From NCBI RefSeq assembly GCF_030028105.1, contig NC_092393.1, forward strand, positions 33,457,248-33,521,247: a DNA stretch of 64,000 nt, in the 5' to 3' direction. The stretch is from Mobula birostris. Taxonomy: Eukaryota. Both the position numbers and the translations under genes were made by a program. Shown here piece by piece: positions 1 through 57,620 of this stretch. Under the pieces are notes generated by a model. That model saw only the letters and a program-made list of their open reading frames with translations. It ran no database searches and was not told the origin of the DNA. Numbering within the stretch: the first letter of the stretch is position 1; every line of letters starts with the position of its first letter.

Positions 1-2255
1 ATCCTTCTATAGAGCGTGAATCTCTCTAATATTAAAGAAGGATAAAGATCCTGCTCAATGTGCATCTTGTAGACCAGTATCTTTATTAAATGTTGATTCT
101 AAAATTTTTTCTAAATTATTAGCAAACAGATTAGAAAAAGTTCTCCCTTTTATTATCTCGGAAGACCAAACGGGTTTTATTAAAGGTCTTTACTCTTTCT
201 ATAACATTCGCACGCTGTTAAATATTGTTTATACCCCCTCACAAAATGTTCCTGAGTATGTTATCTCTTTAGATGCTGAAAAAGCTTTTGATAGAGTAGA
301 ATGGCCTTACTTATTTAAGGTGCTTGAAATGTTTAATTTTAGCTCGAAATTTATATCCTGGATCAAACTGTTATATCATTCTCCTATGGCCTCAGTCTGT
401 ACTAACTCTTTAAGCTCACCTTTTTTCACTCTTTTTCGAGGTACTCGACAAGGTTGTCCTCTTAGTCCTTTATTATTTGATATTGCATTAGAACCTCTTG
501 CAATTGCCATTCGAGAATCTCCAAATATTATTGGGATAACTCGGGGCTAAAGTCCCATAAAATATCACTCTATGCTGATGACTTACTTTTATATATTTCT
601 AATCCTCAAAAATCTATCCCTGCTGCTTTAGATTTATTAGCACAATTTAGTCTTTTTTCAGGTTATAAATTAAATCTTAGTAAGAGTGAACTTTTTCCGA
701 TTAATAAACAACTTCCCTTGTATCATAACTTTCCGTTTAAATTGATTAATAATTATTTCTCATATCTTGGGATTAAAATTACTTATAAACACAAAGATTT
801 ATTTAAGATGAATTTTTTACCCTTAATTGATCATATTACTCAATTTTCATCTAAATGGTTTCCATTATATTTAACTTGGATTGGTCGTATTAATGCAGTT
901 AAGATGTTTATTCTGCCAAAATTTTTATATATATTTCAGGCATTACCGATTTTTGTTCCAAAATCTTTTTTTGATAAAGTTGACTCTAAAATTTCTTCAT
1001 TTATTTGGCAAAATAAAAACCCGAGACTGGGTAAAATACATTTACAGAAAGCTAAGAGAGATGGAGGTTTAGCACTACCTAACTTTAGATTCTATTATTG
1101 GGCAATTAATATTCGACATATGAAATTTTGGTTACTTGACCAAGATACACTATCCATCCCTAAATGGGTAGTATTGGAATTACAATCTGCTCAGGGCTAT
1201 GCACTTGGCTCTATTTTAGATTCCTCTCTTCCTTTCGATTTGAAACGCCTCAAACTGGTCTCTAACCCGATAGTTAAATATACCTTACGTACTTGGTTTC
1301 AATTCAGAAAATTTTTCGATCTTAACCAATTTGGGCTAGCGATCCCTATTTTAGGTAACATATTTTTTCCTCCCTCTTTCACGGATCGTGCGTTTCAAAT
1401 TTGGAAGACTAGGGGTACTTCACGGTTTTTGGATTTATTTTTAGATGGTTCCCTTATGTCTTTTGAACAATTATCTAATAAATATAATTTACCAAGGATA
1501 CATTTTCTTAGATATCTTCAGGTTAGAAATTTCCTAAGTACTATACTTTCTTCCTTTCCAATGCTCCCTCCTACATATATTTTAGATACTATAATCAACC
1601 TTAATCCATGTCAGAAAGGTGCAATGGCTATTATTTATAATATTATTATGAAACTTAGGAAAGCTCCATTTGATAAGATTAGGTCAGATTGGGAACAAGA
1701 ATTGGGTTCTATTATTTCCGTGGATGACTGGGGGCAGATTTTACAATTAGTCAATACTTTCTCTATCTGTGCTAAACATTCCCTAATTCAATTTAAACTT
1801 GCTCATAGAGCACATATGTCCAAAGATAAATTAGCTCGTTTTTATTCTCATGTTAATCCTTTTTGTGATAGTGTCCGGGGCAGATAGCTTCCTTAGCTCA
1901 TATGTTTTGGTCTTGTCCTACTCTGGAAACTTTTTAGAGAGACATTTTTAATATTATCTCAAAGGTATTGAATATAGATACCTCTCCTCATCCTATTACT
2001 GCTATCTTTGGATTACCTAAAATTTCCAGTAATCTTTCCCCTTCAGCCCGTAGAATGATTGCACTTCTTACTTTAATGGCAAAAAGATGTATCTTACAAC
2101 ATTGGAAAGAGCCTAATGCTCCAACTACCTTTTTTTGGTTTTCCCAGACGATATTATGCTTAAATTTGGAGAAAATTAGAAGTAATCTTTATGATTCCTC
2201 ACTTAAATTTGAACAGACCTGGAGATCTTTTATTCAATATTTTCATTTAATGTAA
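1..2255 (+). pseudogene. Disrupted L1 ORF2 (reverse transcriptase)
   Basis: ORFs 320-550, 718-1887 and 1968-2255 join via frameshifts near 545 and 1870 plus an in-frame TAG near 1935. Confidence 0.9.
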
Positions 2256-11610: not shown

Positions 11611-12453
11611 AGCTTCCTTCTCTGTTAGTTGGGTAAAAAAAAAGTCCTAAAAATAGAATGCAGAGGGGATGAATAAAGTTTGCAGTAATAGAGATGAGAG
11701 GAAAAAATCAAAATGACCAAATAAAGCCATAGGTTGTTAAAGATGATTCATTTTCCTTTCCTTGATGAAGTTAAAGCATATATGCAGGAACACAAGCATA
11801 GTTCATCAAAAATTTGGAACAAATCCAGGACCACCCTGTATCAGTTAACTTAATTATGCACTAGGTAATCCATTACATAATTGAGTCATTTGGAAGATTT
11901 AACAACAGACACATTGCAAAACCATTGTTTACCATGACCCCTGTATCTAGAATTACATATTCTTTTCAAAAAGAGTTCTGTCCCAAAATGACTTGATTCA
12001 TAGCGAGTGACTTATCTGAAACTCTTTTGGAACACATTTCCACATTTCCCTCTTAGTAGTTTGTTTTTATTTACTCACTTGTTTTGGGAAAACGGCATCA
12101 CTGACATATAAGCTTACTGCCGAACACGAATTGCCCTTGATAAAATGGTGCTAGGCCACCTTCCTGATCATCTCCTTTCTCTGTGCGAATAGAATTTGTG
12201 TCACAAGATTTAGCAGCTGTATTGCACTTACAGAGATATCAGGAATCTAGGGCTTCAGAAAAAAACAATCATTGTAAATAAAGCTGATCAATAAATTGAA
12301 AATAAGCTTGTTTATTAGCCCATGAATTCCTTTCAATTGCAACATCAGGTATTAAACCAAGGGAGATTTTGTAGACCAAAACATTCTTAGGAAATGTGTT
12401 CCAGTCTGAATAGACTCTTCTCGGGCTTCCAGCCTGGTACTGGTATCAATTTT

Positions 12454-12498
12454 AACCAATGTTTCGATGACGAACTCTGCCATCTTTATCAGGATGAT
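12454..12498 (-). ncRNA. Minimal type-I hammerhead ribozyme motif, decayed
   Basis: Reverse complement reads catc CTGATAA a gatggc-agagttc-gtcatc GAAAC ATT ggtt; G8>A in the core. Confidence 0.6.
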
Positions 12499-13520: not shown

Positions 13521-13564
13521 CATCTCTGATGAAGATGGCAGAGTATATCATCGAAACATCAGGT
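13521..13564 (+). ncRNA. Minimal type-I hammerhead ribozyme motif
   Basis: atct CTGATGA a gatgg..tcatc GAAAC ATC aggt. Core boxes intact and stems I/II pair; the stem III palindrome ACGT reads ACAT. Confidence 0.7.
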
Positions 13565-22176: not shown

Positions 22177-24680
22177 GGAGTTCACTGACAGCACTTACTG
22201 ACGGCAGTCTACATTCCCCCCCAGGCGGACGTGGAGTGTGCTCTGAACATACTGTATGCCAACATCAGTGAACTTGAGACCAGATATCCAGAGGCTTTGC
22301 TCATTACAGCTGGGGACTTTAACTAGACCAACCTCAGAAAGGCGCTGCCAAAGTTATACCAATATGTCTCTTGCCCCTCTAGAGGCCCGAATATACTTGA
22401 CCACTGCTACACAGCAGTCAAGGATGCCTACCGTTCTGTCCGACGACCTCACTTCGGAAAATCGGACCATCAGGCCGTACTCCTCCTTCCGGCTTACAAA
22501 CAGAAACTGAAGCGGGAGGTCACGGTGTCAAAAGTGGTGTCGCATTGGACAGAGGAAACGGATGAGGTCCTCTGTGACTGCTTTGAATCGGTGGACTGGT
22601 TAGTATTCAAGGACTCGGCAGCTAACCTCGATGAGTATGCCTCAGCTGTCACGGACTTTATCTGGAAATGCACAGAGGACTGTGTGTCTTGCAAGACGAT
22701 CCTGGTATTCCCTAACCTGAAACCTTGGATGAATTATGAGGTTAAGTCCATTTTGAAGGCTAGAGCTGTGGCTTTTAGGTCCAGGGATACCAGTCACTAC
22801 ACGGAATACAGGCATGAACTCCAGAAAGCCATTAAGGGCACCAAGAGGCACTATCAAACCAAGTTGGAAGCCCAGGCTAACCAGAGGGATGCCAGTAGAC
22901 TATGGCAGGGTCTAAATGAGATCACTGGGCACAAAGGAAAGGCTGGGAATATCAATAACAGTGGCGCTTCTCTTCCTGACGAACTTAATGTATTCTATGC
23001 AAGATTCGAACAGAAGAGCAGCGTCCTGCTCCCTCCGGATGAACCGGACCTGGTGACATCGAGATTCATTGTCACCGAGGAAGACGTTAGAGGGGCCTTC
23101 CTGAAGATAAATCCAAGGAGGGTGACGGGCCCAGATGGCGTCCCGAGATGGGTTCTCTGGGCCTGTGCAAGCGAACTAGCTGGAGTGTTTGCTGACATCT
23201 TCAACTGCTCCTTGCTTCAGTCTAATATCCCCTCGTGTTTTAAGAAGACAACGATAATCCCGGTGCCGAAGAAGAGCAAGGTGGCATGCCTGAATGACTA
23301 TCGACCTGTGGCTCTGACATCAATTGCTATGAAGTGCTTCGAGAGATTGGTTATGGCACACATCAACCACAGCCTACCAGTCAACCTCGATGCTTTGCAA
23401 TTCGCCTACTGGAGCAACAGGTCAATGGCAGATGCCATCTCTCTGGCCCTACATTCCTCCTTAGAACACCTGGAGAATAAAGATGCATATGTAAGGCTCC
23501 TTTTCATTGACTACAGCTCTGCAATTAATACCATCATTCCAAATAAACTGATTCCTAAGCTCCTGAACCTGGGCCTTAGCACTCAAATCTGCAGCTGGAT
23601 CTTCAACTTCCTCACAGATAGGACCTAGGCTGTAAAAGTAGGGGACAAGCTCTCCTCTACAATCACTCTGAGTACCGGTGCCCCACAAGGCTGTGTACTC
23701 AGCCTCCTGCTGTACTCACTGTACATCCACGATTGTGTAGCCAAGTTTCCATTGAACCCAATATATAAGTTTGCTGATGACACCATAATTGTAGGCCATA
23801 TCTCGGGTAATGATGAGTTTGAGTACAGAGGGGAAATTAAGAACCTGGTGGCATGGTGTGAAGACAATAACCTATCCCTCAATGTCAGCAAGACGAAGGA
23901 ATTGGTTGTTGACTTCAGAAAGAGTAGCTGACCACATGACCCCATTTACATCGGTGGTGCGCAAGTGGAACAGGTCAAAAGCTTTAAGTTCCTCAGGGTC
24001 AATATCACAAATGAGCTGACTTGGTCCAACCAAGCAGAGTCCATTGCCAAGAAGGCCCACCAGCTCCTTTACTTCCTGAGAAAGCTAAAGAAATTTGGCC
24101 TGTCCCCTAAAACCCTCACTAATTTGTATAGATGTACCATAGAAAGAATTCTTCTAGGGTGCATCACAACCTGGTACGGAAGTTGTCCTGTCCAAGACCG
24201 GAAGAAGCTGCAGGAGATCATGAACACGGTGCAGCACATCACACAAACCAATCTTCCATCTTTGGACTCACTTTACACCACACACTGTCGGAGCAGTGCT
24301 ACCAGGATAATCAAGGACACGACCCACCCAGCCAACACAGTTTTCGTCCCTCTTCCCTCCGGGAGAAGGTTCAGGAGCTTGAAGACTCATACAGCCAGAT
24401 TTGGGAACAGCTCCTTTCCAACTGTGATAAGACTGCTGAACGGATCCTGACCTGGATCTGGGCCGTACCCTCCAAATATCTGGACCTGTCTCTCGGTTTT
24501 TTTTTTTTGCACTGCCTTACTTTCCCTTTTCTGTTTTCTGTTTATGATTTATAATTTAAATTTTTAATATTTACTATCAATTTGTACTCCAGGGAGCGGG
24601 AAGCGCAGAATCAAGTATCACTGTGATGATCGTACATTCTAGTATCAATTGTTTGGCGACAATAAAGTATAAAGTATAAA
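22177..24680 (+). mobile_element. 5'-truncated Rex1/Babar LINE (partial APE + RT + 3' UTR)
   Basis: GPDGVP, LNDYRPVALTS, LLFIDYSSAINT, GAPQGCVLS, KFADD, FKFL, LPSGRRFRS; (aaagtat)n tail at 24664-24680. Confidence 0.95.
22200..24450 (+). pseudogene. Disrupted Rex1-type EN-RT ORF
   Basis: ORFs 22525-23628 and 23965-24450 are in the same frame, separated by premature stops (23626, ~23929). Confidence 0.9.
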
Positions 24681-30607: not shown

Positions 30608-31392
30608 AATAAGAGTTTTGAATGCTCTAGGACAAAAAGTTCATTAAGCACTTAGTACAGGCTGGAATTAATCTTTCTTTGTGGTTGTACATCAGTGGAA
30701 CAATGATTAAATCATAGCTATTTCGTTTCACCAATTCACATAACTGATCCAATGTACAAGGGTTGCCACATGTACAATCAATGGAATCTTAAAACAACTA
30801 TCATACGATCTGGGTGTCCACTCATTCTGGCTGATAACATCACAGGCAAAGTTAATATCGTTGTCAGCCATCAACATTGATCTAGCTGCCTTATGCATTT
30901 AAATGAAGCTGGCTGGAATATTCTAGATACCACCCGTGCCCTTGTATCTGTATACAGGACAGTCAAGGTCGGTGTCATTGCCACTGGCATTGTATGGATA
31001 TTGGTTCTTCTAAATGCCTACCACAAACTATCATGGTAATCTGAAATGAGTGTTCTTATAATACATCAACAACTTTGGACCATGCCTGTACCTACTGCCG
31101 CCAATGACCTTGCCTTCCCTCATGGTTTATCATAACTGATTATTCATGGTGATCTTGACCATCATCTGAGATCCTCTAGTCAAGGTACAACCCTTTCTGG
31201 TCTTGAAAGCCCAAAGCACCTCAGTACTTAAGAAAATCCTGCCTATTGGCTGTTAAGAAAATGAGTTTTTGTGCCTGTACTTAATTTGTAATGAACTCCT
31301 GAATCACTGTGCAGTCCTTTTACTTAGTTGCAACACACATCAAAGTTGCTGGTGAACGCAGCAGGCCAGGCAGCATCTATACGAAGAGGTAC

Positions 31393-31428
31393 AGTCGACG
31401 TTTCGGGCCGAGGCCCTTTGTCAGGACT
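31393..31428 (-). ncRNA. Minimal hammerhead ribozyme motif, G8>A mutant
   Basis: Reverse complement: agtc CTGACAA a gggcctcggccc GAAA cgtc gact. Confidence 0.7.
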
Positions 31429-33183
31429 AGCTGAAAGAAGGGCTAATAAGAGATTTGAAAGTGGGAGGGGGAGGGGGAGATCCGAAATGATAGGTGAAGA
31501 CAGGAGGGGGAGGGATGGAGCCAACAGCTGGACAGGTGATTGGCAAAAGGGATATGAGAGGATCATAGGACAGGAGGCCCAGGGAGAAGGAAAAGGGGAA
31601 GGGGGGGAAAAACACAGAGGATGGGCAAGGGGTATAGTGAGAGGGACAGAGGGAGAAAAAGGAGAGAGAGAAAAAGAATGTGTGTATATAGATAAATAAA
31701 TAACGGATGGGGTACGAGGGGGAGATGGGGCATTAGCGGAAGTTTGAGAAGTCAATGTTCATGCCATCAGGTTGTAGGCTACCCAGACGGAATATAAGGT
31801 GTTGTTCCTCCAACCTGAGTGTGGCTTCATCTTTACAGTAGAGTAGGCCGTGGATAGAATGGGAATGGGATGTGGAATTAAAATGTGTGGCCACTGGGAG
31901 ATCCTACTTTCTCTGGCGGACAGAGCGTAGGTGTTCAACGAAACAATCTCCCAGTCTGCGTCGGGTCTCGGCAATATATAGAAGGCCCCATCGGGAGCAC
32001 TGTCTGGGGCCCTGAATGGTAGTGAGGGAGGAAGTAAAAGGGCATGTAGCACTTGTTCCGCTTACAAGGATAAGTGCCAGGAGGGAGATTGGTGGGGAAG
32101 GATGGGGGGGATGAATGGACAAGGGAGTCATGTAGGGAGCGATCCCTGCGGAAAGTGGGGGGGGGGAGGGAAAGATGTGCTTAGTGGTGGGATCCCGTTG
32201 GAGGTGGCGGAAGTTATGGAGAATAATATGTTGGACCCGGAGGCTGGTGGGGTGGTAGGTGAGGACAAACGGAACCCTATTCCTAGTGGGGTGGTGGGAG
32301 GATGGAGTGAGAGCAGATGTGCATGAAATGGGGGAGATGCGTTTGAGAGCAGAGTTGGTGGCGGAGGAAGGGAAGCCCACTTCTTTAAAAAATGAGAACA
32401 TCTCCTTCGTCCTGGAATGAAAAGCCTCATCCTGAGAGCAGATGCGGCGGAGACGGAGGAATTGCGAGAAGGAGATGGCATTTTTGCAAGAGACAGGGTG
32501 AGAAGAGGAATAGTCCAGATAGCTGCGAGAGTCAGTAGGCTTATAGTAGACATCAGTAGGTAAGCTGTCTCCAGAGGTAGAGACAGAAAGATCTAGAAAG
32601 GGGAGGGAGGTGTCGGAAATGGACCAGGTAAACCTGAGGGCAGGGTGAAAGTTGGAGGCAAAGTTAATGAAGCCAACAAGCTCAGCCGTCAGAGAAAGCA
32701 GGATCTCCCAGTGGCCACACATTCTAATTCCACGTCCCATTCCCATTCTGATATGTCTATCCACGGCCTCCTCTTCTGTAAAGATGAATCCACACTCAGG
32801 TTGGAGGAACAACACCTTATATTCCGTCTGGGTAGCCTCTGACCTGATGGCATGAACATTGACTTCTCAAACTTCTGCTAATGCCCCACCTCCGCCTTGT
32901 ACCCCATCCGTTATTTACTTATTTATATACACACATTCTTTTTCTCTCTCTCCTTTTTCTCCCTCTGTCCCCCTCACTGTACCCCTTGCCCATCCTCTGG
33001 TTTTCCCCCCCTCCCCCTTTTCTTTCTCCCTAGGCCTCCTGACCCATGATCCTCTCATATCCCATTTGCCAATCAACTGTCCAGCTCTTGGCTCCATCCC
33101 TCCCCCTCCTGTCTTCTCCTATTATTTCGGATCTCCCCCTCCCCCTCCCACTTTCAAATCTCTTACTAGCTCTTCTTTCAGTT

Positions 33184-33219
33184 AGTCCTGAAGAAGGGTC
33201 TCGATCCGAAACGTCAACT
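33184..33219 (+). ncRNA. Minimal hammerhead ribozyme motif, core intact, stem I mismatch
   Basis: agtc CTGAAGA a gggtctcgatcc GAAA cgtc aact. Confidence 0.75.
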
Positions 33220-34989
33220 GTACCTCTTCCTCGAGATGCTGCCTGGCCTGCTGCGTTCACCAGCAATTTTTATGTGTGTTGCTTGAAATTCCAGCGTCTG
33301 CAGATTTCCTCGTGTTTGCACTTTTACTTAGTTTCTATGGCAAATTTCAAGAGGTCTAGGAAATCCTTGTATATGAAATTAATTCAAAATCTCAAAATGT
33401 AGCTCCTTTAAATAATATCAGTGGTAATTTGCCTTGCTTGATTGGGTTATATATATTCATCAAAATGCCCTTGGATTAAATCTGACATTGAAGCTGGTTT
33501 CCAGCTGAATTTTTTGATGATTTTAACAAACCTTGTGGCCTTTGCTGATGACATTTCTCTGAAAATTTGTCTGTAGAATCAGACTTCTTTGCAAATACCA
33601 GTTCGAGTAAAAACCTAGATCAGGTTACTAAACGCTTCCATGAATCCAACAGAAATTCATACAAGCCCAATTCACATTAAGACCAAAACTGTAACAGATG
33701 CATCAACAATTAACTGGTGGACGCATTTTGTGTTCACATTAATCAGTTCAGTGTAAAATTTAAGGACTGCACATCTGGGAATTTAAGAAGGAGCTGGCTT
33801 GTTCCATCATCTTAATGTCTGTCGCTGTTTTTTTGAAAATATAATTGATCACAGCATTAATGGAGATAAGAGTATTGTAAATCATCAATGCCAGCAGAAG
33901 AGAGCTTCTAGTTTGATATTAAAGGAGTTCATTATCAATATCTCTTCCTATCTTTCACTTATTTAAAATTCATTTTTAAAGAATATGTATGTTTAAACTT
34001 CATACTTCACCTGATCAAGTTTCAAGGATGTGAGCTTGAGATCAGTTTCTTGCAGAATTTTATCCACTCCAAAATTTCCCCATTGAACTGAGAATGATTC
34101 TTTATTTCAAATCCCTCTTGCAGAGAAAGGAACAGTGTTAGATCAGGGCTATAACATATTCAGGAATCTTATATGCTATAAAAATAAGCTTCTACAAGTA
34201 CCAGCAGCGTACTCAATTATACATATATCATTCATGTTATTGATTTCTCCCTTTCCATTATAATTAAGCCTTTGCTTTGTAGCCTCATATAAATGACAGG
34301 ATGATATGAAGAAATTATCTTGGTGAAAAGTAATATCTCCTGTTTATAAGAATAATCAATCTTCTGGAAAATTTATGAGTTCATACCTACATGATAGAAC
34401 TCAAATCAAAATCCCAGAACAACTCATGGTGTCACTTACATCATCTTCCTTCACTTCTGACTTCCTGAGTGTTGTTTTCCTCCCAGCAAAGACAATCCAT
34501 AACACCTAGCAAGCTGTATCAGAGAAATTGTTTTGTCTTATTGGTGCACTTCTGTAACACAGTGGCAGGGTAATCTAGTACTACTAATAACACAAGAATG
34601 CAGGTGGGAAGAATTGGAGGGAAAGAGCTTTCTGTATCAACAGTGTTAGAAGCTACACAAAGGGCCCTGATGCTACCTCACATTGGCACAATACCATCAA
34701 TGGCTTACACAGAAAAATAAAGAATATTTATCAGTTTTGTTTCTGGTCATCTGGCAACTAAAAGTATAGTAAGTTTGCAAAATGATGGAATAACAAAGAT
34801 TAACTACTAATGACAAAAAAATGCACAAAAGTGAAGAAACTGAATATTACTTTCTGAAAGAGAATGATTTTAAGAACTTCAAAACAGAATTGCATTTGGA
34901 TCACTCCAGATTATTTTAATGACAAATGATATTACTTTGCAGAGAAGTGGTTTCAAAGATGGCAATAATGAACCCGTTCTGTTAGTTTG

Positions 34990-39170: not shown

Positions 39171-39400
39171 TGCTAGCCCCACTGAACAGTGTGCATTGTC
39201 CCAACCTTAGTCAAAGCAAACTCACAAGTAACTACAGAGAGGATTGAGGTTTCATAAGAATAGTCCAGATTTGAAGAGCAATGCTCTTCAAGAGAGAACC
39301 AACACTAAAGCACTCAGAGCTAGGTCCCAAATCCAGGAACTTTAATCCTGATGACTGAGTAAAACCACTTGGTTTAGATAAAGGCTCTTCCTTTTTCATG

Positions 39401-40074
39401 AAAGTTGCTGGTGAACGCAGCAGGCCAGGCAGCATCTCTAGGAAGAGGTACAGTCCACGTTTCGGGCCGAGACACATTTTAATTCCACGTCCCATTCCCA
39501 TTCTGATATACCTATCCACGGCCTCCTCTACTGTCAAGATGAAGCCACACTCAGGTTGGAGGAACAGTACCTTATATTCCGTCTGGGTAGCCTCCAACCT
39601 GATGGCATGAACATTGACTTCTCAAACTTCCGCTAATGCCCCACCTCCCCGTCGTACCCCATCTGTTATTTATTTATTTATATACACACATTCTTTTTCT
39701 CTCTCTCTGTTTTCTCTCTCTGTCCCTCTCACTATACCCCTTGCCCATCCTCTGGGCTTTTCCCCCCTCCCCCTTTCTTTCTCCCTAGGCCTCCTGTCCC
39801 ATGATCCTCTCATATCCCTTTTGCCAATCAACTGTCCAGCTCTTGGCTCCATCCCTCCCCCTCCCATCTTCTCCTATCGTTTCGGATCTCCCCCTCCCTC
39901 TCCCACTTTCAAATCTCTTACTAGCTCTTCCTTCAGTTAGTCCTGACGAAGGGTCTCGGCCCGAAACGTCGACTGTACCTCTTCCTAGAGATGCTGCCTG
40001 GCCTGCTGCGTCCACCAGCAACTTTGATGTGTGTTGCTTGAAATTCCAGCATCTGCAGATTCCCTCGTGTTTGC
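39401..40074 (+). mobile_element. Short Neptune-type PLE: ~72-bp inverted 5' segment (39401-39473) + endonuclease end + pseudo-LTR
   Basis: Near-identical to 32714-33319 and 47394-47995; the first ~72 bp are the reverse complement of ~39953-40025. Confidence 0.95.
39939..39974 (+). ncRNA. Intact minimal type-I hammerhead ribozyme motif
   Basis: agtc CTGACGA a gggtc-tc-ggccc GAA ACGT C gact: stem I agtc/gact, stem II, palindromic ACGT stem III, GUC cleavage triplet ending at 39970. Confidence 0.85.
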
Positions 40075-42299
40075 CTCTCCCTTTTTCAGTTGGTGTCTCT
40101 TTCTCTTCCTGCTGATAACATATTTCACCTTGAGTACCACCAAAATATTTTTAAAGTCATATATCAATAAGCTAATAATTCATGGAGTAAATTCTTCCAC
40201 CATAATAAAGTAATTACTCGTTGAGTGGAGCAGGAAACTAAATTGAAAAGACCATTCATGAACTACAACATTATGAACTAATTTGTCGAGTCTGTATGAG
40301 CAATGGCTGAGAGCCCCTGTGCTATAATTGGAATGTTATTGACTCCCATTCAACATGATCCCAAAGTAAGTTGAATTTAAATTTGTAGCTGCAAGTCAAA
40401 TTGCTAATTTAAAAATGCAATAAATTACTGCTTATCACTTATAATGCATCATGAACAGCATAAAGTCATAAATTATGTATCTTGTCTTAAATATTCTCTT
40501 ACATACACTAGTACTGTTTGCACATAAATTGTCTGAATGTCCTATATTTAAAAGTGTTGTGACATTTATGCAAAGGTGATGTAAAATATGACCTTTCAAT
40601 TCTTTTAGATATCTGTTCTTAGACAAAAACTGCCAAAGGACTGACATTTATTTAATGAATTGTGGAAGTTACTTTCCTTCAAATTTTTAACAGCCTAATT
40701 ATTGAAATAGGAAATAATTATGAAGCGTGGTAAATCTGCAAGCAGACACTTCTTGTCAACTTCAGAAACCATCAAAGCACAGAGCAGGCAATTAGTAATC
40801 CCGCCATTACAGTAGTTGAAAGGTCAAAATCGTCTACATACCTAACATTTTGAAATATTACCTTTTAAAATTCTGGATGAATTCCAATTTTTATAACAGA
40901 ATGTGAACAATGCTATCAAAAGAGATGTTTGTTGTCTGCTCTGTTGAAAATTTATCTGCAGGATCATTAGATTTTCTCATAGTTCCAGCTGTTCTATATT
41001 TGATTAGAAGGCTATTTCAGAGAATTCGGCAATGATGGTTTCATAACGGATATAATTAAATCACACAGGAACTCTGATATTCAGGAAACTTATGACCATT
41101 ATATCTGCCTTAAATGCCTCAACTCCAAAGCACCCACATTGCTGAAGTCCTTTGTTTTGCAATTCAGTTTTACTGAATATCTGAAGTGGAACTGCAATGC
41201 ACTTTAATTATATTACAGGATACCTATCTATAAACCGGATAATATCATGTTTGTATTAAATAATGAAATGATGCTTCCAAAGGAAGAATTTATTAAATTA
41301 ATACTATAATACTATATTTAGAATGTTTTTAACCCCTTCATTTACATTCTTATTTGGTGCAATATTTCCTGGTGAGTTATCTATATTGCGCCGAATGAAT
41401 CAACCCCAGTAGTCCACAAAATTATCATCAGATAACTGGCAAAATCTACTAATTTCCCCTCATCTTTCTTGACTCTATTCGTCATGTGAGTTGCCTGATA
41501 ATAGAGGATCAGAATGTTTGGTAAACCTTTTAGTGTTGAAATGGTAGAAATTTTACCAAGCATGCAAAACCGAACATCCATCATTGAATCATAGTTTCCA
41601 AGAGTGGGAATTAGACATGCAATCAAAACTGCAATACACAAATTTTTAAAATACTTTGGATGTACTGACAGCATTAAGCCACTTGACTTGTGCGAATGAA
41701 TTTTTTTTAAATGTTATTTTTGTACAAAGCAGACAACATCAAAATGCCCAAATCTGCTCACAGCTGCAAGTAAAGCTTTATGGTAGAAAGATGAGGGTAG
41801 AAAGGGGCAAGGATGTGGGATGAACTTAAATACACAAATATGAATTTTGAAGTTGAGTGAAGGAATGAGGAGTCTGAAGCCTTACAGCTTACTTTGGGAT
41901 AAAATACAAGCAGCAGAGGTTTGGATGAGTTGATTTTTGTGCAGTGTGGAAGAAGGCATACCAGCCAAATATTAGAATAGTTTCACCTGAAGGTGGCAGA
42001 ATCACAGATGAGATTTCAGCAGCAGATGGGCTATCACTGGAACAAAGACATGACATGGAGTTGCAATTAATGCCTTTAATGAATTTGTAATAAATTTGGA
42101 TCTGCCTTCAATTACATACTACTGAAAATCAATATAAATTTGATGGTGTTCTCTCTGTAATCTAAAAGTCCTCCATGCATGAGTCTCATTAATATTTTAC
42201 ACAGGGGTATTTCCATGTAATGTAATTTACAATGATATTTATAATAATTTTGAACTGAGAACATTACTTTCTTAGCCAATCCCTCAAGAACGATTTTCA

Positions 42300-42999: not shown

Positions 43000-45900
43000 A
43001 CTACTACTACTACATCGACTCAGGCCTAGGGGGCTGGCGTCAGGCATGATGACGGACTCTCCACTTCTCCCTCTCCCTCATCACTGTGTTCAGTTCATCT
43101 ACATTAGCTGCGCCACTGTCTTCTAGGAGCAATTTGACCATAGTCTTGGGAGGGCACCCAGGGTTCATCCTCCCATGCTTGGGCTCCCATATGATGACTA
43201 GCAACACTCAGTGGAGAGCATCGGTAGGTTGTTATAGAGCTCAACATTCGTCATGTACTGTTGCCAACTCACATCAAGAGCCATCCGGAGCATTCGTGTG
43301 TAGCAACCATCTAGAGACTTTCACATCATCTTGGTGACTGTCCACATCTCGCATTCGTACATGAGAATGGACTCTATGACTGCTATGAAAATCCCCTTTT
43401 TAAGCCCTCTGGTCAGGTTCGACTTCCAGATTTCCTTCGTGTCGTTCATAGCCCTCCACACCAGCGCCTTCCATATCTTTATATCCTTCTCTGACCTCAT
43501 CATTCTTGACCCAAGGTACCTGTAGTCAAAGACTTTCTTAATGCTATCATTCTCTACGGTCTTGAGAGTACCTTCATCGCAGTTAAACGCCATGTACTCT
43601 GTCTTTTTAGCATTTAGGTGAAGTCCAACTTTATTGCATTCTATTTCCACTTTTGTCAGTAGCTGCTGTGCTTCCTCCATCTGAGCAGGACTATGTCATC
43701 TGCAAAATCGAGATCTGTGAGTGTAACTGGTCTGACCATTTTGGTTCGCCCTGGTTCTATGGTAAAAACCAAGCTTGTCATGATCTTTGGTAGCTTGACG
43801 TAGAGCGTAATCAAGGACGATTATAAAGGTGTAGGGTGCCAGATTATCTCCTTGCAGCACACCAGCTAGGAGCTCGAACTCTGCTGTTTCTCCGTCCGGT
43901 GATACAACTTTCGCCATGGTTTTGGTATAGCTGGACTCTATTGCTCTCAGTAGATGGTCTGGCACTCTGTAAGCTTTCAGGATCTTCAGCATTTTACCTT
44001 GGTGAATGGAGTCAAAAGCTTTGCGAAAATCAATGTAAGTAAGCACGGCTGGTAGGTTGTTCTTCTTGACTTCCTCGATGATCCTACGGAGAGCAAGTAT
44101 TTGCATTACTGGTGTGCGCTTCTGCCGAAAACCATTCTGATTGAATCTTAGCTTAGGGTCAATGGCAGTGCGAATCCTGTTCAAGATCATCCGATTGTAT
44201 AGCATTGCTAAGATGCAAGTCAAGCTGATACCGCGGTAGTTATCTGTCTTTGTGAGGGATCCAGACTTGGGGACTGGGATAATGTTTGAGAGTGACCACT
44301 GTTCTGGTTTGTCGCCTTTCATCAGTGCCGTATTACATATATAAGATGTCATCTAGGTCGCAGTTCTTCAGGACATCCGGCGGTATCCCATCTGCTCCAG
44401 CACTCCTGCCCTGTTTGAGTGCATATTTGACCTTCTTCAGTTCCTCAATGGTGAATGGGCTGTCATCGATGTCGACTTGCGTTAGTATCATGGGTATGTC
44501 CTCTTCTTCTTCCGTGATCGTTGAAGGGCTTCCCAGCAGGTTCTTAAAGTGGGTAAACCATGTCAGGACACGGTCCTCTGCTGCTTTACCACTTATTTGA
44601 CCTAATGGGGACTTCTTCCATCTACTGATCTCATTGACTTGGTGCCATGCTTCTCCATGCTGCATGTCTTCATTAGCAGCTTCTATCTCTCTAACCCTCT
44701 CAGCTAGTTCCTCTTCCTTCAGTTGGTCGTAGGTGGCAAAGAGATTCTTCTTTGCTGTCCTGAATTTGTCTCTGAGCTCTTCTGTTTCGCTCCTTCTAAG
44801 TTCCGCATGACAAGCATTGACCACACTTCTTGCTGAGACGACGTCAGGATGGTTCGAGATCCGACTCTTCTTGATTTGCTTCACAGTAGGCAAACTCTTT
44901 GTTGCATCTGTGTGTGCGTCTATGAGCCATTGATAGCGGTCGGTGGCAGTCTCTTCCTCCCTGCTTTCCAGTGGGCCGAAGCGATTTCTCACCTCCACTG
45001 TGTACTGAGCTTGAAGAACAGGTTGTGAGGAGAATGCCTTCCTGTCTATCTTCTCCTTGGGACCTGTGGCTTTGGGTTGCCGCAGGCTCGGTCTCACTTG
45101 CATTGACACTACCCTGTGATCAGAACTGACCGAGTTGAAGGTGCTGTAGGCTTCTGTGTTGATCACACAATTACACCATTTTGTTCTTACGAGGATGTAA
45201 TCGAGCTGTTTCCTGTAGATGGAGGCTCTGTTTTCATATATCCACAATTTACCAGCTCGCTTCTTGAATTGTGTGTTGGCGGCAATGAGACTGTGTTCTT
45301 GGATGAAATCAACTAGATATTGTCCATTTCTGTTGGTAAAGTCTTGGTATAAGTATGGAACATCTTCCAGTCTGACCTGGGCATTAAAATCGCCGAGCAC
45401 AGCCAGGAAGTTATGTGCCGGTATTGAAGTGACAGCTTTGTGAAGTTTACTGTAGAAGGCCTCCACCTCCTTCTCCTCGCTGAATTTGTGCGGGGAGTAA
45501 CAGATGATGACAGAGGTCGCCGGGTTTCCGTCAAATTCGGCAGTAAAGATTCTGTCACTGACTGAGACTACACCCCTCAGTGCCTCCTTCGCCTTGCAGT
45601 TCAACATCAGCCCTACTCCACCTTGTGCTGACATCGTCGTCGGCTCTCTCCATGCAGACAAGGTGATGAGGTGCATCCCCTCTACCTCTGTAAACCTTAT
45701 CTCTTTGTCAGGGTGTACATGACGGTGTTCTTGGATCCCCAGGATGGAGATCTAGTAGCTGCTTGCCTGTGATGCCAACTCTGTGCATCGAGGCAAGAGG
45801 CGGATGGTGTTTGTGTTGAAGGTTGAGATGATTGTTTTTACCTTACAACGCAAAAGAGATGCAGTTCGTTCAGCCCCCTTGTCGGACTCAACCCTCCCCA

Positions 45901-46290: not shown

Positions 46291-46388
46291 CCTCTACCAC
46301 CACTCAGCTCCAACTAGCGGAATTAGTCCTTACTCTTAATAATTTCTCCTTTAGCTCCTCTCACTTCCTCTAAACTAAAGGTGTAGCT

Positions 46389-47559
46389 ATGGGCACCCAT
46401 ATGGGTCCTAGCTATGCCTGCCTTTTTGTTGGGTTTGTGGAACAATCTATGTACCAAACCTATTCTGGTATCTGCCCCCCACTTTTCCTTCGCTACATCG
46501 ATGACTGCATTGGCGCTGCTTCCTGCACGCATGCTGAGCTCATTGACTTCATTAACTTTGCCTCCAACTTTCACCCTGCCCTCAAGTTTACCTTGTCCAT
46601 TTCCGACACCTCCCTCCCCTTTCTAGATCTTTCTGTCTCTATCTCTGAAGACAGCTTATCTACTGATGTCTACTATAAGCCTACTGACTCTCACAGCTAT
46701 CTGGATTATTCCTCCTCTCACCTTGTCTCTTGCAAAAACGCCATCCCCTTCTCGCAATTCCTCCATCTCCGCTGCATCTGCTCTCAGGATGAGGCTTTTC
46801 ATTCAGGACGAAGGAGATGTCCTCCTTTTTTAAAGAAAGGGGCTTCCCTTCCTCCACCATCAACTCTGCTCTCAAAAGCATCTCCCCCATTTCATGCACA
46901 TCTGCTCTCACTCCATCCTCCTGCCACCCCACTAGGAATAGGGTTCCCCTTGCCCTCACCTACCACCCCACCAGCCTCCAGGTCCAACATATTATTCTCC
47001 GTAACTTCCGCCACCTCCAACAGGATCCCACCACTAAGCACATTTTTTCCTCCCCCGCTCTCTGCTTTCCACAGGGATCGCTCCCTACGTGACTCCTTTG
47101 TCCATTCGTCCCCCTCCATCCCTCTCCACCGACCTCCCTCCTGGCAATCATCCTTGTAAGCGGAACAAGTGCTACACATGCCCTTACACTTCCTCCCTTA
47201 CCACCATTCAGGGCCCCAGACAGTCCTTCCAGGTGAGGCGACACTTCACCTGTGAGTCGGCTGGGGTGATATACTGCGTCCGGTGCTCCCGATGTGGCCT
47301 TCTATATATTGGTGAGACCCGACGCAGACTGGGAGATCATTTCGCTGAACACCTATGCTCTGTCCGCCAGAGAAAGCAGGATCTCCCAGTGGCCACACAT
47401 TTTAATTCCACTTCCCATTCCCATTCTGATATATCTATCCACGGCCTCCTCTGCTGTCAAGATGAAGCCACACTCAGGTTGGAGGAACAACACCTTATAT
47501 TCCTTCTGGGTAGCCTCCAACCTGATGGCACGAACATTGACTTCTCAAACTTCCGCTAA
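46389..47559 (+). pseudogene. Disrupted PLE RT/GIY-YIG endonuclease ORF
   Basis: ORFs 46389-47159, 46817-47092 and 47089-47559 are frameshifted pieces of one ORF ending NIDFSNFR*. Confidence 0.9.
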
Positions 47560-47859
47560 TGCCCCACCTCCCCCTCGTACCCCATCCGTTATTTATTTAT
47601 ATACACACATTCTTTTTCTCTCTCTCCTTTTTCTCCCTCTGTCCCTCTCACTATACCCCCTGCCTATCCTCTGGGGTTTATCCCCCCTCCCCCTTTTCTT
47701 TCTCCCTAGGCCTCCTGTCCCATGATCCTCTCATATCCCTTTTGCCAATCAACTGTCCAGCTCTTGGCTGCATCCCTCCCCCTCCTGTCTTCCCCTATCA
47801 TTTCAGATCTCACCCTCCCCCTCCCACTTTCAAATCTCTTACTAGCTCTTCTTTCAGTT

Positions 47860-47895
47860 AGTCCTGACGAAGGGTCTCGGCCCAAAACGTTGACT
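47860..47895 (+). ncRNA. Minimal hammerhead ribozyme motif, G12>A mutant
   Basis: agtc CTGACGA a gggtctcggccc AAAA cgtt gact. Confidence 0.7.
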
Positions 47896-47995
47896 GTACC
47901 TCTTCCTAGGGATGCTGCCTGGCCTGCTGCGTTCACGAGCAACTTTTATTTGTGTTGCTTGAAATTCCAGCATCTGCAGATTTCCTCGTGTTTGC

Positions 47996-48190
47996 ATGAT
48001 GACTGAGGTCTAGTTAAACCAGGATCTGGAGTGTAGTTGCTATAGATTGAGCAATTTCTCAATACTTCCACTGCTGCAGCAAGTTTACTGAAAGTGGGAT
48101 ACAACATTGCAGCAAGGAAAATTAAGGAATGTGTTGGAGCAATGAAGTTGCTTGATCTGTTTGACACTGATCTTCACTGAGAATGGTTCT
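47996..48190 (-). mobile_element. Old RTE-BovB-like LINE, upstream RT part
   Basis: IAPTHSLIFLAAML..SKLAAAVE (cf. GCVIAPTLFSIFLAAML..KLPAGVE), ending TSVI just before the YADD-equivalent found at ~42860. Confidence 0.7.
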
Positions 48191-57010: not shown

Positions 57011-57014
57011 TTCA

Positions 57015-57620
57015 AGAGGATATCTGAAGACGCTGGAAATCCAAGCAACACACACAAAATGCTGGAGGAACTCAGCAGGCAAGGCAGCATCTATGGAAAA
57101 GAGTACAATCAACGTTTTGGGCCAGGACCCTTTGGCAAGACTGGAGAAAAAAAGCTGAGGAGTAGACTTAAAAGGTGGGGGGAGGGGAGAGAGAAACACA
57201 AGGTGAAAGGTGAAACCTGAAAGGGGAAAGATGAAGTAAAGAGCTGGAGAAGGCAGAGTCTGACAGAGGAGGAAAGAAGGCCATGGAAGAAAGAAAAGAG
57301 GAGAGGAGCACTAGAGGGAGGTGATGGGCGATCAAGGAGATAAGTTGAGAAGGGAAAAAGGGGATGGAGAATGGTGGCGGGGGGGAGAATTTCGAGAAAT
57401 CGATGTTCATGCCATTAGGTTGGAGGCTACCCAGACAGAAATAAGGTGTTGTTCCTCCAACCTAAGTGTGGCCTCATCACAACAATGGAGGGGGCCATGT
57501 ATAGACATATCAGAATGGGAATGGGAAGTGGAATTAAAATGAGTGGCCACAGCGAGATCCGGCCTTTTCTGGCAGACGGAACGTAGGTGCTTGGCGAAGC
57601 GGTCTCCCAATCTACGTCGG
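57015..57620 (-). mobile_element. Neptune-type PLE 3' fragment (diverged subfamily) with decayed hammerhead at 57107-57142
   Basis: GDRFAKHLRSVCQK..RLEEQHLI; reverse complement agtc TTGCCAA agggtcctggccc AAAA cgtt gatt. Confidence 0.9.

What the first reader, a model, noticed from the sequence alone, without database searches (positions are those of the whole stretch)
39939..39974. Fully intact minimal hammerhead ribozyme in a short Penelope copy
Seen: agtc-CTGACGA-a-gggtc.tc.ggccc-GAA-ACGT-C-gact, with both catalytic boxes, paired stems I and II, an extra A after CUGANGA and a GUC triplet. Known: PLE pseudo-LTRs carry minimal type-I hammerheads whose palindromic stem III (ACGU) favours a dimeric fold. 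Inference: this copy may be catalytically competent, cleaving after C39970, probably only when paired with a second motif.
Basis: partly seen in the sequence, partly recalled or inferred. Interest (0 to 1): 0.7.

Follow-up and report, generated by a model that had tools for sequence, protein, structure and literature searches.

The report
Penelope hammerhead with fossil cleavage scars
This is one ordinary, undecayed copy of a known tiny self-cutting RNA motif carried by a very abundant Penelope-type jumping gene, but rare sister insertions are joined exactly at the predicted cut, which likely records the motif cutting the front end off the element's RNA in living cells.

Summary
The motif is real: a minimal type-I hammerhead (C17 = 39970) in the pseudo-LTR of a 5'-truncated, head-to-head Penelope-like insertion (39399-40074, 14-bp target duplication). 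This class is published (PMC4209133). The copy is not special: 4,596 identical 36-mers occur in the genome, and sister copies decay by CpG transitions. Alone it is predicted to fold into a closed, inactive hairpin. The family holds more. (1) Copies start at the motif's first bases: 2,181 against 282 and 133 at control sites; a capped RNA start is likely. (2) Of 52 head-to-tail joints mapped, 22 end exactly at C17; in the 20 loci traced the added piece is only the short leader; other positions reach about 6. This is best read as reverse transcriptase jumping onto cleaved leaders, that is, cleavage in vivo. Against: no clear excess of copies starting at the cut; all 20 loci carry the G10.1-U11.1 variant, not this copy's G-C form; no RNA ends could be examined. 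The scan reported both signals before on other DNA of this genome. Verdict: new member of a known kind, with indirect evidence on an open question.

The parts
39385..39398 (.). Left target-site duplication
   Evidence: 13 of 14 bases match 40075-40088
39399..39473 (-). Inverted, 5'-truncated second arm: from stem II of the hammerhead to the short 3' end
   Evidence: 96% match to 39953-40029
39472..39636 (+). Last codons of the GIY-YIG endonuclease domain, stop TAA 39634-36
   Evidence: matches 3' end of long ORFs in L084, L085
39637..39938 (+). Pyrimidine-rich pseudo-LTR part; likely promoter for the downstream RNA (inferred)
   Evidence: same stretch precedes the ORF in full element L083
39937..39943 (+). 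Initiator-like TTAGTCC; predicted RNA start A39939 (+1), minor start A39935 (-4)
   Evidence: 5' boundary peak; extra G before these A's in 7 of 7 one-base joints; YYANWYY consensus is recalled
39939..39974 (+). Minimal type-I hammerhead: stem I 39939-42/39971-74, core 39943-49, A9a 39950, stem II 39951-54/39959-62, GAA 39963-65, ACGU 39966-69
39970..39971 (+). Predicted scissile bond (+32/+33)
   Evidence: hammerhead numbering; 22 of 52 mapped joints end at +32
39975..40074 (+). Leader after the motif; family 3' ends cluster near 40035-44 (short) and 40070-75 (with tail); this copy has the tail
40075..40088 (.). Right target-site duplication
47860..47895 (+). Sister copy, G12A and C17U
33184..33219 (+). 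Sister copy, stem II and stem I broken
31393..31428 (-). Sister copy, G8A

Best explanation
This is a passive, undecayed copy of the minimal hammerhead in a Penelope-like element's pseudo-LTR; in the family the motif likely forms the first 36 bases of a capped RNA and likely cuts itself after base 32 now and then, probably as a protein-assisted dimer, while most insertions are copied from uncut RNA. Steps. SHOWN: motif, host element, head-to-head structure with target duplication, copy numbers, peak of copy starts at +1/+2, peak of joints at +32. INFERRED: transcription starts at A39939 (minor A39935); the RT starts internally near +100 or +135 and runs off at +1, giving 100/135-bp stubs and fold-backs; now and then it jumps end to end onto the 3' end of a cleaved leader, writing +1..+32 in front of +1. 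FROM LITERATURE: dimer need, low rate, protein assistance. This particular copy has no ORF downstream and no intact partner nearby; I put its own cleavage in vivo at about 0.1, though the 36-mer would probably cleave slowly as a dimer in vitro.
For: Class features met (-11 paper). Full element L083: motif, ATG at +171, long frame, second motif 3,723 nt on. Start peak: 2,181 of 27,926 intact 32-mers have a foreign flank at +1/+2, against 282 at 39931 and 133 at 39985 with the same filter, 530 at +3 with a stricter one; 11 of 30 such loci are free-standing stubs with no shared upstream exon, 8 with a visible target duplication (by eye); 8 of 15 ORF-bearing copies start at +6..+40. Joints: 21 of 57 genome matches end at +32 by eye (P 4e-11 against 15 equal positions, 2e-5 against 7); by script 22 of 52 joints in 50 fetched loci, 12 of them blunt +32 to +1 with no microhomology; in 20 of 20 loci traced the added piece begins between -7 and +16; repeated leaders in L337, L380. 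Positions +41..+87 reach at most about 6 events each (154 matches, by eye after collapsing arrays). Untemplated G before A+1 or A-4 in 7 of 7 one-base joints. End-to-end jumping is documented for the R2 RT (PMC4117753 passages). Second family has a TATA box 39 nt before CUGA and 2 of 18 copies starting at the motif edge.
Against: No clear excess of copies beginning at the cut: 194 matches, of 30 loci 13 are stem-I fold-backs, 8 GAC microhomologies, 2 clean; GAC control 23 at +33 against 38-40 at +7 of 63; of 99 junctions at +30..+36, clean ones are flat (3,0,0,2,2,2,2), though inverted ones show a local high at +33 (21 of 67, 5 of them decayed +30). All 20 loci of the +32 class carry U11.1, none this copy's C11.1 (P 0.003-0.06). 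A broad shoulder of joints at +62..+70 (about 36 events, by eye) shows that other 3' ends are also jumped on; +88..+140 was not scanned. The +32 test was prompted by 2-3 such rows. Predicted energies disfavour the active dimer (-14.7 against -32.1 kcal/mol for another dimer). PMC11167929 found no RNA-seq reads ending at the cut in Anolis and no need for cleavage in vitro. Template jumping is not shown for a PLE RT in anything I read.
Confidence: 0.65

Rival explanations
1. The motif is a hammerhead by descent but the joints at +32 come from something other than self-cleavage: a structure-guided host nuclease, a polymerase pause, or a preferred re-priming site at the junction of two helices in the closed hairpin.
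Against: One-base sharpness at the bond named beforehand by hammerhead chemistry (22 at +32; 1, 8, 3, 1 at +30, +31, +33, +34); 12 joints have no microhomology; no second single-base peak between +24 and +87.
Confidence: 0.2
2. This very copy is a working ribozyme at its locus, transcribed from its own pseudo-LTR and cleaving in trans with sister RNAs, perhaps kept for that.
For: All core bases and the G10.1-C11.1 pair intact; about 460 nt of pseudo-LTR upstream retained; an RNA starting at 39939 keeps stems I and II (pair probability 0.46-0.73) and excludes the antisense arm.
Against: 4,596 identical copies, so intactness needs no selection; decay in sisters is CpG-neutral; in read-through RNAs from 39472 or 39380 stem I probability is 0.0 and the inverted arm forms a long duplex; no +32 joint carries this copy's C11.1 form; no RNA evidence for the unique flanks could be obtained.
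Confidence: 0.08
3. The +1 edge is not a transcription start but a splice acceptor or an RT stop at stem I; the rest stands.
For: A long pyrimidine tract ends in CAG (39934-36) and TAG (39938-40); in D. virilis the intron's 3' end maps to helix I; cDNA fold-back through stem I is seen (13 of 30).
Against: No shared upstream exon in 11 free-standing stubs; copies include A39939 and G39940, which a TAG acceptor would remove (2,181 against 530); extra G before A+1/A-4 fits a cap; D. virilis start lies 46 nt before its intron, so a start at the motif is a different layout.
Confidence: 0.07

Closest known systems
Minimal hammerheads (min-HHR) of metazoan PLE pseudo-LTRs (Cervera and De la Pena 2014, PMC4209133; read parts 1-2 of 4 and searched 2 of 3 supplements)
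   Same: Type I, 4-5 bp helix I, base between 9 and 10.1, G10.1-C11.1, palindromic 15.1-16.1 with no loop 3, thousands of dispersed single copies, opposite-strand pairs, tandem pairs about 3 kb apart; fish Neptune and Poseidon named.
   Different: Helix II here is 4 bp (7-8 bp in S. mansoni). The paper states there is no in vivo evidence; no shark, skate or Callorhinchus row in the supplements searched. The dominant subfamily here has G10.1-U11.1.
PAc hammerhead of Anolis Poseidon (Frangieh et al. 2024, PMC11167929; read parts 1-2 of 4)
   Same: Motif in the pseudo-LTR just ahead of two internal RT start sites that bound the tail; uncut RNA is the main template.
   Different: In PAc the ORF begins in stem II; here the ATG is at +171. 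They saw no RNA-seq ends at the cut; here genomic joints mark it. Their cleavage needed the protein; untested here.
Neptune/Nematis-type EN+ Penelope-like elements (Craig et al. 2021, PMC8557442, passages; Arkhipova et al. 2013, PMC3846280, passages)
   Same: RT plus C-terminal GIY-YIG, CX4CX2C linker, 5' truncation, inverted 5' arm, tail of 30-40 bp on one arm, target duplication.
   Different: No tree was built, so Neptune and Nematis are not told apart.
HDV-like ribozyme at the 5' end of R2 (Eickbush et al. 2013, PMC3774820; abstract only)
   Same: 5' ribozyme whose cut site can be read from genomic junctions.
   Different: R2 cleavage makes the template's 5' end; here copies start 32 nt before the cut and the scar is on the upstream fragment's 3' end.
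Animal non-LTR retrozymes (Li et al. 2026, 10.64898/2026.07.22.740005; read part 1 of 5 and passages)
   Same: PLE-derived, type-I hammerhead; short tandem arrays of the motif exist in this family (L093).
   Different: This copy is a single truncated piece of a coding element, not a tandem non-coding unit.

Membership tests
min-HHR (type I) | CUGANGA and GAAA boxes, UH at the cut | tested here: met
min-HHR (type I) | Helix I 4-5 bp and helix II closed by G10.1-C11.1 | tested here: met
   met by this copy, not by the U11.1 majority
min-HHR (type I) | One base between 9 and 10.1; palindromic 15/16 with no loop 3 | tested here: met
   A39950; ACGU 39966-69
min-HHR (type I) | Located in the pseudo-LTR of a PLE | tested here: met
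   two motifs flank the long frame in L083
min-HHR (type I) | Stem covariation | tested here: inconclusive
   none in 58 family copies; 4 compensatory pair changes and one U-U against one other family, by eye
min-HHR (type I) | Self-cleavage as a dimer | not testable with these tools
   only indirect: joints at +32; fold energies unfavourable
Rfam hammerhead families | Match to a covariance model | tested here: not met
   no hammerhead hit at E<=1 or E<=10
EN+ PLE, Neptune/Nematis type | RT and C-terminal GIY-YIG in one frame | tested here: met
   RVT_1 E 1e-5 to 4e-5, GIY-YIG E 7e-4 to 5e-3, both under Pfam cut-off
EN+ PLE, Neptune/Nematis type | CX2-5CxxC linker between RT and EN | tested here: met
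   C-x4-C-x2-C in L084, L085; definition
EN+ PLE, Neptune/Nematis type | Inverted 5' arm and 30-40-bp tail on one end | tested here: met
EN+ PLE, Neptune/Nematis type | Placement in the RT tree | not tested
   no tree built
Non-LTR retrozyme | At least two consecutive units, each with a whole motif | tested here: not met
   single motif plus a partial antisense arm

The most novel reading that the evidence does not exclude
The hammerhead is a self-decapping switch: it is the first 36 bases of the capped element mRNA, stays shut as a monomer, and cuts off the capped 32-nt leader only when two element RNAs are brought together, for instance on the dimeric RT-endonuclease. That would make cleavage a dose-sensing control of translation or turnover rather than a step that makes the template, and the G-U variant that swept the family would be the more cleavable form.
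Probability: 0.25. Interest if true: 0.75.

Novelty: new member of a known kind. Interest (0 to 1): 0.5.

Why it matters
What PLE hammerheads do, and whether they cut in cells, is stated as open in PMC4209133, PMC8557442 and PMC11167929. Joints that end on the scissile bond and carry only the short leader are a DNA record that points to cleavage in the germ line, and they place the motif at the RNA's very start, which argues against the proposed role of cutting unit-length templates out of tandem transcripts. It names exact ends (+1, -4, +32) to look for. I found no paper reporting this in four searches, but Lunse et al. 2017 was not available and may bear on it. The copy at 39939 itself matters little.

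Tried and rejected
Rfam scans: no hammerhead match. Fold z-scores: uninformative, -0.09 to -1.16. Tandem-looking pair in L031 was two separate truncated copies, not a full element. A peak of copies starting at the cut (+33): looked for three ways and not established. Plain copies ending at the cut: 249 matches, nearly all small indels in the first 100 listed. Shared 5' exon upstream of +1: not seen. RNA ends and expression: all 24 runs were contigs only; two layings cannot show ends, and lack of cover on the unique flanks proves nothing; loose ends before the base matching 39939 appeared in 4 of 4 runs, but partly come from older subfamilies, so I give them no weight. No formal covariation count or covariance model was built, because family copies differ only by decay. 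No bench data on G10.1-U11.1 turned up in the search listing (no paper opened). Lunse et al. 2017 could not be read; I rely on the passage in PMC6765202. Supplement file 1 of PMC4209133 and the supplements of the 2026 preprint, which covers one cartilaginous fish, were not seen and may list this motif.

Full report
Numbering: +1 = A39939; the predicted cut lies between +32 (C39970) and +33. The window is G000:C28:33457248-33521247 of a 4.01-Gb genome; that it is a ray or other cartilaginous fish is my recollection of the repeat and is not shown by a call.

1. Observation. The motif is present as described. Stem II is 4 bp with a CUCG loop rather than 5 bp with a 2-nt loop. A descriptor needing both boxes and both stems finds 2 sites in the window (39943 and 13526) and none in 20 shuffles; the bare box pattern is only marginal. 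Rfam has no matching hammerhead.

2. The insertion. 39472-40074 matches three other window copies at 92-94%; 39397-39473 is an inverted copy of 39953-40029. A 14-bp duplication (13 of 14) flanks the unit. The direct arm starts in the last codons of an endonuclease. Long copies elsewhere have open frames of up to 1,005 codons from stop to stop; the two scanned (958 and 859 aa) give weak RVT_1 and GIY-YIG hits and hold a C-x4-C-x2-C linker, the mark of Neptune/Nematis PLEs (PMC8557442 passages). L083 shows pseudo-LTR, ATG at +171, frame, pseudo-LTR, with motifs 3,723 nt apart. Family 3' ends fall in two classes about 35 nt apart, the published tail.

3. The copy is ordinary. The exact 36-mer occurs 4,596 times, control 0; 14,136 copies keep the scaffold and their core changes are mostly CpG transitions (first 100 listed); 58 copies not chosen on the motif show the same. 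With C or T at 11.1 there are 27,926 intact 32-mers, 76 of the first 100 with T. The T group is less diverged than the C group (2.5%, n=52; 4.3%, n=6; sample enriched for intact frames), so the window copy belongs to the likely older, canonical subfamily.

4. Folding (predicted). The monomer closes into a rod in which G5-G8 pair with 15.2-17 (-11.9 kcal/mol). The double-hammerhead fold scores -14.7, an alternative dimer -32.1. RNAs starting at +1 keep stems I and II; read-through RNAs from 39472 or 39380 lose them. This fits the published picture: monomer silent, dimers slow (PMC4209133, parts 1-2), cleavage protein-assisted and dispensable in vitro (PMC11167929, parts 1-2).

5. Where copies begin. 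With a foreign-flank filter, 2,181 copies begin at +1/+2, 282 at 39931 and 133 at 39985; a stricter filter gives 530 at +3. Of 30 loci, 18 are head-to-head junctions, 11 free-standing stubs of about 100 or 135 bp and 1 an older subfamily (by eye); the stubs share no upstream exon. Of 30 leader-bearing copies 15 run into the frame; 8 start at +6..+40, 2 at +89/+109, 5 upstream, none at +33. A second family has a TATA box 39 nt before CUGA in 4 loci checked and 2 of 18 copies starting at the motif edge. An RNA start at the motif is inferred.

6. The cut, 5' side. 194 copies pass a filter for starts at +33; of 30, 13 are stem-I fold-backs, 8 GAC microhomologies, 7 other composites, 2 clean. The GAC control gives 23 at +33 and 38-40 at +7 of 63. 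Of 99 junctions from the first 100 of 767 matches, 21 were internal indels or direct joins, 11 clean and flat, 67 inverted with 16, 2, 1, 21, 6, 10, 11 at +30..+36; five of the 21 are decayed +30 starts and many share G or GA with a purine-rich partner. A small step at the cut is possible but not established.

7. The cut, 3' side. In 50 fetched loci (52 of the 57 joints) the script finds 22 at +32: 12 blunt to +1, 3 blunt to -5, 2 with one extra base, 5 with 2-3 shared bases; 8 at +31, at most 5 elsewhere. Leaving out the array L371, 20 loci with different flanks remain; the added piece starts between -7 and +16 in all 20, so it is the leader, never the long upstream pseudo-LTR. L337 and L380 carry it twice. 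Seven of 7 one-base insertions before A+1 or A-4 are G, as expected if the RT copies a cap (recalled from LINE-1); 4 of these sit on pieces ending at +31 and may also be cut leaders. Control windows: 39, 76 and 39 matches for +41..55, +57..71, +73..87; by eye, after collapsing arrays and dropping inverted arms, no position exceeds about 6, with a broad shoulder of about 36 events over +62..+70. Poisson P for 20 against a mean of 6 is 5e-6. +88..+140 was not scanned. All 20 loci carry U11.1.

8. Mechanism. The simplest account is that a capped RNA starts at +1 (or -4); the RT primes internally, runs off at +1 and, rarely, jumps end to end (as R2 RT does; PMC4117753 passages) onto a 3' end that is far more often +32 than any other single base. 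Self-cleavage makes exactly that end. Rough odds: motif identity 0.97, start at +1 0.75, cleavage in vivo in the family 0.7, activity of this copy in vivo 0.1. The events are rare (about 20 among more than 27,000 copies), so they do not give a rate.

9. Novelty. The class, its fish occurrence and the dimer idea are published. Four searches found no report of a start at the motif or of joints at the cut; Lunse et al. 2017 was known only through a review passage and some supplements were unseen. The scan's own notes already report both signals on other pieces of this genome; they are not independent support. I reproduced the start peak before reading them and the +32 joints after; I did not find the equally hit second site of e1-9827944 within +24..+87. 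Interest 0.5: an ordinary copy, with family-level indirect evidence on an open question that is directly testable.

Noticed in passing
window 13526-13560 (+), inverted arm 12408-12492: Second Penelope-like family with its own minimal hammerhead (longer stem II, decayed here), CCAAT and TATA boxes upstream in sister copies; 18 exact matches of a hand-made pattern in the genome.
   Followed up: partly
L093 7669-8105 (G000:C5): Four tandem 67-bp units, each holding the whole motif, behind an inverted arm; similar short arrays appear. They would put two motifs side by side in one RNA, like a tiny retrozyme.
   Followed up: partly
genome-wide, position matching window 39962: About three quarters of intact copies have G10.1-U11.1 instead of the conserved G-C pair; this subfamily looks younger and holds all 20 cut-site joints.
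   Followed up: partly
joints: An untemplated G recurs just before A+1 and A-4, a possible cap signature.
   Followed up: partly
joints ending +62..+70: Broad shoulder of about 36 head-to-tail joints with no single peak; could be paused or prematurely ended transcripts.
   Followed up: no
window 31330-33320: Larger head-to-head insertion of the same family (minus arm 31330-32686, plus arm 32686-33320); another copy at 46374-47996 and an older subfamily copy at 57013-57620.
   Followed up: partly
window 20-2255, 22327-24450, 43321-45751: Broken reverse-transcriptase frames of other LINE-like elements; family names not tested.
   Followed up: no
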